Source: a virus (lineage: Duplodnaviria > Caudoviricetes). From it: 64,000 bases of DNA. This document shows, piece by piece, positions 34,074-46,116 of this stretch; the stretch's first letter is position 1; each line of letters opens with the position of its first letter. Both the position numbers and the translations under genes were made by a program. The notes beneath the pieces were generated by a model. That model searched no databases. It saw only the letters and a list, made by a program, of their open reading frames with translations, and was not told the DNA's origin. The stretch spans positions 11,824-75,823 of IMG/VR virus record IMGVR_UViG_3300031902_000003. One strand, written 5' to 3'.

Positions 34074-34151
34074 GGAGTGACGAGGCCTATCAGCCATTAG
34101 AATACTCATCCTATTAATCTCGTCCCTTCTGAGTGTCACTGGCTCCCTTAG
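34074..34151. repeat. Dispersed inverted-repeat element, copy 1
   Basis: GGAGTGACGAG-34 nt-CTCGTCCCTTCTGAGTGTCACTGGCTCCCTTAG; last 33 bp identical to 43249-43281. Confidence 0.8.
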
Positions 34152-41694: not shown

Positions 41695-41768
41695 GGTCCC
41701 GTAGCTCAGCTGGATAGAGCAACAGCCTTCTAAGCTGTGGGTCGCTGGTTCGAGCCCAGCCGGGATCA
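41695..41768 (+). tRNA. tRNA-Arg(UCU)
   Basis: Full cloverleaf: GGTCCCG/CGGGATC, ACAGC-CTTCTAA-GCTGT, GCTGG-TTCGAGC-CCAGC. Confidence 0.95.
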
Positions 41769-41885
41769 CTTGTCGAGTACCTGAATCCGAGAGGGTTTGT
41801 TATGCTCCTCTGGTAAGCCATTAAGTGTCTGAAGGATCCAGGGCATCATAATAGAATCCTGGGTAGACAACAAATTGGAGATAAA

Positions 41886-43221: not shown

Positions 43222-43281
43222 GATGTGTGAATAGGTGGTTGAGCTTCCCTCGTCCCTTCTGAGTGTCACTGGCTCCCTTAG
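43201..43281. repeat. Dispersed inverted-repeat element, copy 2
   Basis: CAGAGTGAACGAG-35 nt-CTCGTCCCTTCTGAGTGTCACTGGCTCCCTTAG. Confidence 0.8.
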
Positions 43282-43291
43282 ATAAATCATA

Positions 43292-43320
43292 TGTACTTCT
43301 GGAAATAGAAGTGGTATAAT
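43292..43320 (+). promoter_or_regulatory. Phage early promoter
   Basis: TGTACT-TCTGGAA...-TATAAT with 17-bp spacer. Confidence 0.75.
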
Positions 43321-44015: not shown

Positions 44016-44044
44016 TTTACATCTTGAAATGAAAGTGTTATAAT
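44016..44044 (+). promoter_or_regulatory. Phage early promoter, leaderless start at 44051
   Basis: TTTACA-17 bp-TATAAT; ATG 6 nt downstream. Confidence 0.8.
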
Positions 44045-44456: not shown

Positions 44457-44485
44457 TGTACATCTCTGAAGAATAGGAATATAAT
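44457..44485 (+). promoter_or_regulatory. Phage early promoter, leaderless start at 44492
   Basis: TGTACA-17 bp-TATAAT; ATG 6 nt downstream. Confidence 0.75.
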
Positions 44486-44491
44486 AGTTAA

Positions 44492-44740
44492 ATGGACAAC
44501 TCAAATAAGAAGTTGACGAATTCAGAGCTTAGGCAGATGGTCGATATCACTGGGCGTGATTACAACATCGTGGCCCAGAAGGATATTTTGAAAATGTGGC
44601 AAGGTAACATCGAATCGTTTCGTCCCAGTAATGATGCCGAGTTTGACATGCTTCGTATGGATGCACTCAAGGGATACAGAGATGCTATGAAGCTTCAGTT
44701 GAAGCTTGCCGAGGCATGTCGTCTCCGCCTCGAGAAGTAA
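44492..44740 (+). CDS. Hypothetical protein
   Basis: ORF behind promoter. Confidence 0.65.
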   Translation: MDNSNKKLTNSELRQMVDITGRDYNIVAQKDILKMWQGNIESFRPSNDAEFDMLRMDALKGYRDAMKLQLKLAEACRLRLEK

Positions 44741-44746
44741 AGGTTT

Positions 44747-44850
44747 AGGGGCGCTCGGTGTTCTTCCACCGACCTGAGGGTCGATGGTCGAGCAGCTTGC
44801 GGTTGTTTGACGACAGCGAAGATCTACGCGTCAACGTAGATTTAACCCCT
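44747..44850 (+). ncRNA. Structured ncRNA candidate with two complementary hairpin loops
   Basis: AGGGG/CCCCT closing stem then GTTTTT; loops TTGACG (44807-12) and CGTCAA (44829-34) are exact reverse complements. Confidence 0.65.
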
Positions 44851-44907
44851 GTTTTTGTTGCCGCGGCTGGCGGATCCAGTCTGAAGTTGTAGAGAAGTTG
44901 AGGTAAC

Positions 44908-45264
44908 ATGGCTAAGAACCAAAGGCCGTTTCGTGGTCAGAAGGAAGTGGAGTTGTCCAGTCAGCCGTTCAAGTCTGCTCTCAAGGGGATGAAGGCTGGT
45001 CCGTTGTGTTTGAAGTGCAATGACACGATGGATACTCGTGAGTCGTATTCGGTGTCAAACCCTCGTGGCAGCCGTAAGCTGCAGCGTCATGGCTTCCTGC
45101 ATGAAGAGTGCATGGTCGAAGCCGAGAAGAAGTATCACGAGGAAGAGTGGAAACCCGGTGAGAAGCCCGGGACCTACCTGAAGTTCGTGAAGCGTTCCGT
45201 TGGCATGGAGCTTCCCGTGTTCACCGATGCTGAGATCACCACGCTGTTGAATGGAGAGGAATAA
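44908..45264 (+). CDS. Hypothetical protein
   Basis: SD GAGG; CLKC...HEEC. Confidence 0.65.
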   Translation: MAKNQRPFRGQKEVELSSQPFKSALKGMKAGPLCLKCNDTMDTRESYSVSNPRGSRKLQRHGFLHEECMVEAEKKYHEEEWKPGEKPGTYLKFVKRSVGMELPVFTDAEITTLLNGEE

Positions 45265-45952: not shown

Positions 45953-46006
45953 AGGATGATAGAATATGTGTCTGATTTATCTCGTCACTTCTGAGGGTCA
46001 CTGGCT
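45936..46006. repeat. Dispersed inverted-repeat element, copy 3
   Basis: GAAGTGACGAG-34 nt-CTCGTCACTTC (perfect 11-bp IR) then TGAGGGTCACTGGCT. Confidence 0.75.
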
Positions 46007-46116
46007 GATGACAAAGATTTGGCGGAGTTCCAGATAATCTTCCGCATGTTTGGCCTGTGAAATAGTTCTGGTTCTATAGAAGTTAACCAGATGGTGGAGG
46101 CGGCAGTTGGAAAAGC

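What the first reader, a model, noticed from the sequence alone, without database searches (positions are those of the whole stretch)
44747..44850. Intergenic ncRNA with two adjacent hairpins whose 6-nt loops are exact complements (kissing loops)
Seen: in a 167-nt gap, AGGGG/CCCCT closes a multibranch fold followed by GTTTTT. It contains a 5' branched domain (GCTCG/CGAGC, CGACC/GGTCG), a bulged hairpin with loop TTGACG (44807-12), and, with zero linker, a 7-bp hairpin ATCTACG/CGTAGAT with loop CGTCAA (44829-34). Established: phi29 pRNA and several large bacterial/phage ncRNAs multimerise through loop-loop pairing. Inference: if the two abutting helices stack coaxially the loops point apart, which favours intermolecular hand-in-hand rings or chains. 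Otherwise it is an intramolecular kissing tertiary fold, as in riboswitch aptamers.
Basis: partly seen in the sequence, partly recalled or inferred. Interest (0 to 1): 0.72.

Follow-up and report, generated by a model that had tools for sequence, protein, structure and literature searches.

The report
Phage RNA with pairing hairpin tips
The gap holds a real folded non-coding RNA of a widespread, uncatalogued phage family; evolution keeps its two hairpin tips complementary, and the same tip pair occurs in phage T4's "species 1" RNA, whose role has been unknown for 50 years.

Summary
Window 44746-44857 (+) folds as a four-way junction: P1, a variable arm H1, H2 with tip UUGACG, H3 with tip CGUCAA, then a U-run.

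A 76%-related contig (L033) keeps the fold through four compensatory pair changes. Pattern scans plus a covariance model found 33 distinct relatives in uncultured phages, with one copy in each of the 11 phage records searched whole.
- 95.7% of cells are paired, against 31-46% in slid controls.
- 19 of 30 pairs change on both sides.
- Invariant U.G pairs show it is an RNA of the + strand.

The tip-to-tip helix is paired in every member. Three members changed both tips together (UUGGCG with CGCCAA or CGCUAA).

T4 rnaC (species 1 RNA) carries the same two tips on a tRNA-like scaffold. Tegunavirus TG1 changed both (UUGAUG/CAUCAA).

Rfam has no such family. Most relatives sit in phage tRNA clusters, once inside a permuted tmRNA gene and once beside GOLLD. 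The window copy instead follows a small early ORF.

Whether the tips pair within one molecule or between molecules is not settled. I lean towards between. Function is unknown.

This scan noted the same module on other DNA before (e1-5710207, e1-080950, e1-5482133).

The parts
44457..44485 (+). Promoter-like site (TGTACA, 17 nt, TATAAT) ahead of the 82-aa ORF. It is the likely start of the transcript that carries the RNA at its 3' end.
   Evidence: Consensus scan, 10 of 12 matches. The same phage-specific promoter motif recurs along the window. Use of this site is inferred.
44492..44740 (+). 82-aa orphan ORF directly upstream; the RNA starts 6 nt after its stop codon.
   Evidence: Its only relative is P0003 on L033, at 76% identity. 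It has no PHROG family and no further relative among 1.84 billion representatives.
44746..44751 (+). P1, 5' strand (UAGGGG).
   Evidence: Fold. G-C changes to A-U in L033. This is family helix 1.
44752..44801 (+). H1, a variable arm. Its base is CGC/GCG and there is no linker to P1 or to H2.
   Evidence: L033 has a 17-nt hairpin here. The arm is 15-51 nt across the family, and the two basal pairs C-G and G-C are invariant.
44802..44817 (+). H2 hairpin (GUUGU/ACAGC) with tip UUGACG at 44807-44812.
   Evidence: G-C changes to A-U in L033. Family helix 3 is 99% paired, and its U.G pair is invariant in all 33 distinct members.
44818..44821 (+). Junction linker GAAG. GAA is invariant in the family.
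   Evidence: columns 97-99 are G, A, A in 33 of 33 distinct members.
44822..44841 (+). H3 hairpin (AUCUACG/CGUAGAU) with tip CGUCAA at 44829-44834.
   Evidence: Two compensatory changes in L033. In family helix 5, six of seven pairs change on both sides, and the closing G-C is invariant.
44842..44845 (+). Linker UUAA between H3 and P1. Its first two U can pair with A and G of the GAAG linker.
   Evidence: Most relatives end this linker with UA.
44846..44851 (+). P1, 3' strand (CCCCUG).
44852..44856 (+). U-run right after P1, the likely 3' end by intrinsic termination.
   Evidence: L033 keeps a run of six U. Relatives inside tRNA clusters have no U-run. Termination at this point is inferred.

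Best explanation
It is a small non-coding RNA of about 105-110 nt on the + strand. It belongs to a widespread phage RNA family that no database catalogues.

The fold is a four-way junction with four helices:
- P1, the closing helix.
- H1, a variable arm.
- H2, tipped by UUGACG.
- H3, tipped by CGUCAA.
The junction core is strongly conserved.

Shown here: the four helices and the pairing of the two tips are all kept by selection.

Inferred: how the RNA is made. In most phages it lies in the spacers of tRNA or tmRNA operons, where tRNA-end processing would release it. In this phage it is made as the 3' end of a short early transcript, with the GC-rich P1 plus U-run acting as the terminator.

Inferred, at about even odds: the six tip pairs form between molecules. 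That would join two copies head to head, H2 of one on H3 of the other and the reverse, or join more copies in a ring. The product would be a stable RNA-only particle. Its biological role is unknown; my guess is a scaffold or decoy for a factor tied to tRNA or ribosome biology. T4 rnaC uses the same tip pair on a tRNA-shaped scaffold.
For: Real, selected RNA fold:
- L033 keeps the fold with four compensatory changes while one arm is swapped out.
- Across 33 distinct sequences, 95.7% of cells are paired against 31-46% when slid. 19 of 30 pairs change on both sides, and 0 of 500 shuffles reach the covariation score.
- Invariant U.G and frequent G.U pairs fix the strand and rule out a duplex-DNA site.
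- ORFs across the element are not conserved.

Tips pair:
- The search pattern allowed transitions in both tips. Every true member still pairs: 30 distinct members have UUGACG/CGUCAA, L201 and L203 have UUGGCG/CGCCAA, and L196 has UUGGCG/CGCUAA. There is no mismatch variant.
- In T4-like rnaC, Tegunavirus TG1 has UUGAUG/CAUCAA.

Leaning towards pairing between molecules:
- Both loops are only 6 nt with no spare nucleotides, and all six positions stay complementary. From my own knowledge of solved kissing complexes (TAR-TAR*, RNA I-RNA II), fully paired loops stack end to end with their stems. Two unbent 6-7 bp stems joined by a 4-5 nt linker can hardly do that within one molecule.
- The same tip pair works on two very different scaffolds. 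The tips lie 16-18 nt apart on equal arms here, and about 50 nt apart on unequal arms in rnaC.
- Other structured RNAs of phage tRNA islands self-assemble: GOLLD, ROOL (PMC12286853) and manA (bioRxiv 10.64898/2026.07.01.735769). GOLLD and manA lie beside family members.
Against: - Nothing here shows an oligomer. No structure prediction or probing was possible, and expression could not be checked.
- H2 and H3 have nearly equal length (7 and 6-7 bp). That fits two side-by-side arms touching within one molecule, as in purine riboswitches.
- Only the central tip positions are seen to covary, so a partial 3-4 bp contact within one molecule would explain the data equally well.
- The near invariance of all 12 tip letters goes beyond what pairing alone needs.
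- The loop covariation rests on few events: two or three in this family and one in rnaC.
- Members were found through sequence patterns that fix other conserved parts, so the sample is biased.
- The 3' end at the U-run and the promoter are inferred.
Confidence: 0.55

Rival explanations
1. Same RNA family, but the two tips pair within one molecule. H2 and H3 lie side by side above the junction, and a tertiary kissing contact locks a compact monomer, as in purine or lysine riboswitch aptamers. The monomer then binds a protein or a small ligand.
For: - H2 and H3 have nearly the same length, and a conserved junction (GAA linker, invariant basal pairs) could set them parallel.
- Covariation is seen only at the central tip positions.
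- The distance from tip to tip is held at 16-18 nt.
Against: - The loops have six letters, all complementary, with no spare nucleotides, on short straight stems. Six pairs within one molecule would be strained.
- T4 rnaC keeps the same tips on arms of very different length and spacing.
- The element lies 3' of an ORF, not in a leader. There is no expression platform and no Rfam aptamer match.
Confidence: 0.33
2. It is chiefly a processing or spacer cassette. The long P1 brings together the 3' end of one tRNA or tmRNA piece and the 5' end of the next so that RNase P, RNase III and 3' trimming can act, and the excised piece has no role of its own. In the window it would be a leftover now serving as a terminator or 3' stabiliser.
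For: - Relatives abut tRNA CCA ends and tRNA 5' ends.
- In L175 the element is exactly the intervening segment of a permuted two-piece tmRNA gene.
- P1 is 16-22 bp in many members, long enough for RNase III.
- The window copy ends in a U-run.
Against: - A plain hairpin would do that job. Here the inner junction, two hairpins and 12 tip letters are under far stronger constraint than P1.
- The window and L033 copies keep the whole inner module with no tRNA next to them and only a 4-6 bp P1.
- There is one copy per phage, not one per spacer.
Confidence: 0.08
3. It is a DNA-level site: TTGACG, 16 nt, CGTCAA as an inverted repeat bound by a dimeric protein, or a chance palindrome next to a terminator.
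For: - The half-sites are inverted and lie 22 bp apart centre to centre.
- Both are invariant in most relatives.
- The minus strand also folds well.
Against: - U.G and G.U pairs are invariant or frequent. On the other strand or in duplex DNA they would be A.C mismatches.
- Four helices covary.
- The half-sites always sit at hairpin tips.
- Relatives share the strand of the neighbouring tRNA genes.
Confidence: 0.03

Closest known systems
Phage T4 species 1 RNA (rnaC, NC_000866 70908-71046, 139 nt) and its homologs in T4-like phages
   Same: - It has a hairpin tipped UUUGACGG followed by a hairpin tipped GCGUCAAC. These are the same eight letters each, in the same order, as in family members L167 and L168.
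- Its tips covary in Tegunavirus TG1.
- It sits in a tRNA cluster after tRNA-Arg(UCU), as many family members do.
- It is a stable RNA of unknown function (PMC3014915, PMC9697503).
   Different: - rnaC has a 7-bp acceptor-like stem and a true T arm (GGUUCGAAUCC).
- Its UUGACG hairpin caps a long irregular arm, and the tips lie about 50 nt apart.
- The window RNA has no T arm, a four-way junction with a GAA linker, and tips 16 nt apart.
- Model R2 does not find rnaC significantly: 11.4 bits, covering the H3 part only.
- Whether the two are homologous or only share a module is open.
GOLLD, ROOL and manA RNAs (structured RNAs of phage tRNA islands)
   Same: - They have the same genomic home. GOLLD lies 44 nt from the element in L210. 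manA lies within 0.5 kb in L201 and L203, and about 3.7 kb away on the same contig in L188.
- Their function is unknown.
- They are reported to assemble into RNA-only multimers. For GOLLD and ROOL this is partly through kissing loops whose intermolecular contacts covary (PMC12286853). For manA see bioRxiv 10.64898/2026.07.01.735769.
   Different: - There is no sequence or fold similarity and no Rfam match.
- This RNA is much smaller than GOLLD or ROOL.
- Self-assembly is not shown for it.
phi29 pRNA
   Same: This is my own knowledge and serves as an analogy for the mechanism.
   Different: - pRNA has a three-way junction and 4-nt interlocking loops, and it binds the portal of phi29-like phages.
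- Rfam holds a pRNA family and it does not match.
- Nothing links this RNA to packaging.
Kissing-loop aptamers (purine and lysine riboswitches)
   Same: A closing helix, two hairpins and a loop-loop contact. The lysine riboswitch has six loop-loop pairs (my own knowledge).
   Different: - There is no Rfam match.
- The element lies behind an ORF or between tRNA genes, not in a leader.
- The lysine riboswitch needs a bend in one arm to make its six pairs, and these arms are short and straight.

Membership tests
Four-way-junction kissing-tip RNA of phage tRNA islands (unnamed; model R2, alignment A10) | Match to the family covariance model over its full length | tested here: met
   Window 44744-44853 scores 56.1 bits (E 2e-13, 8e-14) and L033 scores 53.4 bits. 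Both were among the 11 sequences used to build the model, so the match is partly by construction. The independent support is the shared anatomy listed in the rows below.
Four-way-junction kissing-tip RNA of phage tRNA islands (unnamed; model R2, alignment A10) | H2 with basal G-C and U.G pairs and tip UUGACG; an invariant GAA linker; H3 with a closing G-C pair and tip CGUCAA | tested here: met
   All are present at 44802-44841.
Four-way-junction kissing-tip RNA of phage tRNA islands (unnamed; model R2, alignment A10) | H1 starts CG and ends CG, with no linker to P1 or to H2 | tested here: met
   C44752-G44801 and G44753-C44800. These pairs are invariant in the family.
Four-way-junction kissing-tip RNA of phage tRNA islands (unnamed; model R2, alignment A10) | Long P1 (8-22 bp) with an A-U top pair, preceded on the 3' side by UA | tested here: not met
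   The window has a 6-bp GC-rich P1 with a G-C top pair and the linker UUAA. L033 is alike. This is a sub-type feature, not a break in the fold.
Four-way-junction kissing-tip RNA of phage tRNA islands (unnamed; model R2, alignment A10) | Located in a tRNA or tmRNA gene cluster, on the same strand | tested here: not met
   The nearest tRNA, Arg(UCU) at 41695-41769, is 3 kb upstream, and the element follows an 82-aa ORF. Most relatives lie among tRNA genes.
T4 rnaC (species 1 RNA) | Two hairpins tipped UUGACG and CGUCAA, in this order | tested here: met
T4 rnaC (species 1 RNA) | tRNA-like top half: a 7-bp acceptor-like stem plus a T arm with loop UUCGAAU | tested here: not met
   There is no T arm in the window element or in any four-way-junction member. 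ARAGORN finds no tRNA-like gene there.
T4 rnaC (species 1 RNA) | Detectable sequence or profile similarity over the whole RNA | tested here: not met
   R2 against T4 gives 11.4 bits, E 0.07 in 6 kb, for the H3 part only. A whole-genome search of T4 finds nothing.
Intrinsic terminator | GC-rich stem directly followed by a U-run | tested here: inconclusive
   GGGG/CCCC plus five U are present, and L033 keeps the arrangement. But the stem closes a 95-nt branched fold, and the simple terminator scan does not call it. The 3' end was not mapped.
phi29 pRNA and other Rfam families (riboswitches, ribozymes, GOLLD, ROOL, manA, tmRNA) | Match to the family's covariance model | tested here: not met
   No hit at E up to 10 in 44600-45000 apart from two chance-level matches outside the fold. 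Relatives L044, L160 and L163 give no hit over the element either.
Self-assembling RNA (dimer, ring or cage) | Oligomer seen in solution or by cryo-EM | not testable with these tools
   No RNA 3D or complex predictor is on hand. Only covariation of the tip pairs and a geometric argument are available.

The most novel reading that the evidence does not exclude
This roughly 100-nt RNA, and with it T4 rnaC, is a minimal self-assembling RNA. The conserved tip pair joins copies head to head into a closed dimer or a small ring. That would make it the smallest member of the class of RNA-only particles encoded in phage tRNA islands (GOLLD, ROOL, manA), and it would give the 50-year-old orphan T4 species 1 RNA a testable molecular activity in a genetically tractable phage.
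Probability: 0.4. Interest if true: 0.85.

Novelty: new variant of a known kind. Interest (0 to 1): 0.7.

Why it matters
T4 species 1 RNA has been sequenced since the 1970s and still has no known role (PMC3014915, PMC9697503, PMC12685909).

Two results here turn that orphan into a testable object. Its two hairpin tips are a conserved, covarying pair. The same pair defines a compact four-way-junction RNA spread through very different uncultured phages: 100-kb genomes with terminal repeats, a 333-kb genome, and this phage of roughly 150-200 kb.

A handful of transcripts and tip mutants on a native gel would decide between a fold within one molecule and self-assembly. T4 genetics can then test function.

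It also adds a small member to the growing set of structured RNAs that share phage tRNA islands, several of which were recently reported to form RNA-only cages.

For annotation, it explains many 'tRNA-sized gaps' in phage tRNA clusters and one unusually long intervening segment of a permuted tmRNA gene.

Tried and rejected
- **Rfam.** Searched at gathering and permissive thresholds on the window and on relatives. Nothing matched the element.
- **GenBank phages by blastn.** No match for the window region or for L161. Short hits of L160 and L164 are chance. The ones in T4-like Klebsiella and Serratia phages lie in a glutaredoxin-like ORF (..IGGFDEL..) and do not fold.
- **Flanking proteins as guides.** Both are orphans. 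Only P0003 led anywhere.
- **Nearest phages by UvrD-type helicase (55% identity).** They lack the element and both neighbouring genes.
- **A first loose pattern with 15 specified letters.** It gave mostly chance hits. Only L044 was real.
- **Whole cultured genomes searched with R2.** T5, T4, S-PM2, Syn9, P-SSM2, KVP40 and Aeh1 have no member. The KVP40 hits lack H3.
- **Genome-contig scan.** One hit, a metagenome-assembled genome carrying the same GC-rich variant as L196.
- **Considered and dropped:**
  - tRNA or tRNA-like gene: no T loop, and the loops are 6 nt.
  - Hammerhead-like core: GAAA follows H2, but there is no CUGANGA and no Rfam hit.
  - Coding ORFs of 44 and 54 aa across the element: not kept in L033.
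  - Pairing of the tips to 16S rRNA or to the neighbouring tRNA-Arg: no accessible complement was found by eye.

Full report
**1. What is in the window**

The window is part of a 75.8-kb fragment of an uncultured large phage, estimated 37% complete. It encodes a Pol III alpha subunit, rIIA, a DNA ligase and a UvrD-type helicase, and it carries nine tRNA genes.

The 167-nt gap 44741-44907 lies between two orphan ORFs on the + strand, of 82 aa and 118 aa. A promoter-like site of the phage's own recurring type sits at 44457-85, ahead of the first ORF.

The best fold of 44741-44860 is -48.1 kcal/mol, z -3.4. It is a four-way junction:
- P1: UAGGGG with CCCCUG.
- H1: a long irregular arm, 44752-44801.
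- H2: 44802-17, tip UUGACG.
- H3: 44822-41, tip CGUCAA.
- A run of five U follows directly.

Rfam has nothing for it. Within the window, these two hexamers sit at hairpin tips only here.

**2. A diverged copy keeps the fold**

The upstream protein has one relative, 76% identical, on a 769-bp ENA contig (L033). A single-sequence covariance model finds the element there at 52 bits. Read side by side:
- P1 changed G-C to A-U.
- H2 changed G-C to A-U.
- H3 changed C-G to U-A and A-U to G-C.
- Both tips and the U-run are unchanged.
- The 50-nt H1 arm is replaced by a 17-nt hairpin.

The small ORFs that cross the element in the window are not kept in L033. Five further contigs carry identical copies and a sixth starts inside the element, with its 75 nt identical. 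The nearest phages by helicase, at 55% identity, lack the element and both neighbouring genes.

**3. A family**

- A pattern built on the two tips found L044, which has wholly different stems but the same four-way plan (z -4.1).
- A tighter pattern gave nine hits in viral contigs, where about one is expected by chance. Eight of them fold alike.
- Leaving all of H2 free, or all of H3 free, still returned only UUGACG and CGUCAA.
- I aligned 11 members (A7), built model R2 and searched the full phage records. Each has exactly one copy. They include two complete genomes of about 100 kb with terminal repeats and one of 333 kb.
- A metagenome scan that allowed transitions at the four central positions of both tips gave 32 hits, 28 of them confirmed by R2.

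On the resulting alignment (A10, 33 distinct sequences):
- 95.7% of cells are paired, against 31-46% when the partners are slid.
- 19 of 30 pairs change on both sides.
- No shuffle of 500 reaches the covariation score.

Invariant parts:
- the two basal pairs of H1 (C-G, G-C);
- the basal G-C and U.G pairs of H2;
- the linker GAA;
- the closing G-C pair of H3.

The invariant U.G pair and the many G.U pairs fix the + strand and show an RNA-level structure. H1 ranges from 15 to 51 nt. H2 is 6 bp plus a U.G pair, and H3 is mostly 6-7 bp.

**4. The tips pair**

In A10 the six tip-to-tip positions are complementary in all 33 distinct sequences.
- 30 have UUGACG/CGUCAA.
- L201 and L203 have UUGGCG/CGCCAA, a change from A-U to G-C.
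- The GC-rich L196 has UUGGCG/CGCUAA, the same change plus a G.U pair.
- The pattern would have admitted mismatched variants. None of the true members is one.

These are few events, and the sample is conditioned on other conserved letters. The support is real but not deep.

**5. The link to T4**

Because members sit in tRNA clusters, I tested the two classic stable RNAs of the T4 tRNA cluster.
- T4 rnaC (species 1 RNA) has a hairpin tipped UUUGACGG and, about 50 nt later, a hairpin tipped GCGUCAAC.
- Among five diverged T4-like rnaC genes, 13 of 33 pairs change on both sides. Tegunavirus TG1 changed both tips together, to UUGAUG/CAUCAA, a change from C-G to U-A.
- rnaC differs in scaffold. It has a 7-bp acceptor-like stem, a true T arm, and the first hairpin on a long irregular arm.
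- R2 does not detect rnaC significantly.

I therefore file the window RNA as a relative by module, not as a proven homolog. rnaC is not in Rfam. Its role is called unknown in reviews and recent papers (PMC3014915, PMC9697503, PMC12685909). Literature searches found no description of the tip pairing or of this family.

**6. Genomic home**

- Nearly all members lie among tRNA genes on the same strand, often starting right at a tRNA CCA end and often downstream of tRNA-Arg(UCU), as rnaC does.
- In L175 the element is exactly the intervening segment of a permuted two-piece tmRNA gene (RF04321, 83.6 bits).
- In L210 it lies 44 nt after a GOLLD RNA.
- manA RNAs lie within 0.5 kb in L201 and L203, and about 3.7 kb away on the same contig in L188.
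- L187 has two copies.
- The window and L033 copies are the exception. They follow an ORF, have a short GC-rich P1 and end in a U-run. The inner module therefore does not depend on tRNA processing.

**7. How it most likely works**

Shown: a selected four-way-junction RNA whose two tips pair.

Inferred: it is released by tRNA-type processing in most phages, and by termination here.

Open: whether the pairing is within or between molecules.

I lean towards between, at about 55 to 35, for three reasons:
- The loops are fully complementary 6-nt loops without spare nucleotides, on short straight stems joined by 4-5 nt. Six pairs within one molecule would be strained.
- The same pair serves two very different scaffolds.
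- The neighbouring RNAs GOLLD, ROOL and manA are reported to self-assemble (PMC12286853; bioRxiv 10.64898/2026.07.01.735769).

A head-to-head closed dimer, with H2 of one copy on H3 of the other and the reverse, fits two side-by-side arms.

Against this reading:
- The arms have equal length.
- Only the central positions covary.
- Nothing here measures an oligomer.
- The near invariance of the 12 tip letters suggests a further constraint, such as a protein that reads the kissing helix.

**8. Verdict**

This is a new variant of a known kind. It is an uncatalogued phage RNA family that shares its defining module with T4 species 1 RNA.

Other agents of this scan reached the same module and the same T4 link on other genomes (e1-5710207, e1-080950, e1-5482133). 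I saw those notes only after my own analysis, and they agree with it.

Noticed in passing
window 44861-44887: A 27-nt stretch (CCGCGGCTGGCGGATCCAGTCTGAAGT) between the U-run and the next gene's ribosome-binding site is identical in L033, although the element just upstream has diverged. It can form two small overlapping hairpins. The start of the next gene is also nearly identical, so this may only mark a mosaic boundary.
   Followed up: no
L175:1432-1739 (record of L164; also L206, L209): A phage permuted two-piece tmRNA gene (RF04321, 83.6 bits) whose intervening segment is not a simple loop. It is the whole four-way-junction RNA (L175:1501-1587), set between ..CCUCCACCA and GGGGGCGAAAUAGGAUCGA.
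   Followed up: partly
L210:4382-4977; L201:4612-5328; L203:2098-2893; L188:1101-5065: Family members lie next to other structured phage RNAs: GOLLD (209.9 bits) 44 nt upstream in L210, manA within 0.5 kb in L201 and L203, and manA about 3.7 kb away on the same contig in L188. Phage tRNA clusters act as islands of non-coding RNAs.
   Followed up: partly
L187:6056-6154 and 9123-9221: One phage contig carries two copies of the RNA 3 kb apart in its tRNA cluster. Both have the canonical tips but different stems.
   Followed up: no
L170:1307-1488: Just upstream of the element in L161/L170, Rfam's tRNA model matches at 35.8 bits across 182 nt. A T arm, an acceptor 3' strand and CCA abut the element, but ARAGORN calls no tRNA. 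It may be a tRNA with a large insertion, or one piece of a tRNA-like gene.
   Followed up: no
window 15748-57401 (12 sites, e.g. 43292-43320, 44016-44044): A recurring promoter-like motif of about 30 nt (T[GT]TAC[TA]TCT[TG]GA, about 10 nt, TGTTATAAT) marks the starts of early gene blocks on the + strand.
   Followed up: no
window 34119-34151, 43249-43281, 45981-46013: An exact 33-bp repeat (two copies) and a 73%-identical third copy lie at gene ends. Another first-stage note covers this (e1-5901195). It is unrelated to the element studied here.
   Followed up: no
window 44752-44801, minus strand: The H1 arm is close enough to a palindrome that the model also matches its reverse complement (20.7 bits). 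This explains why the minus strand folds well too (z -4.3).
   Followed up: yes
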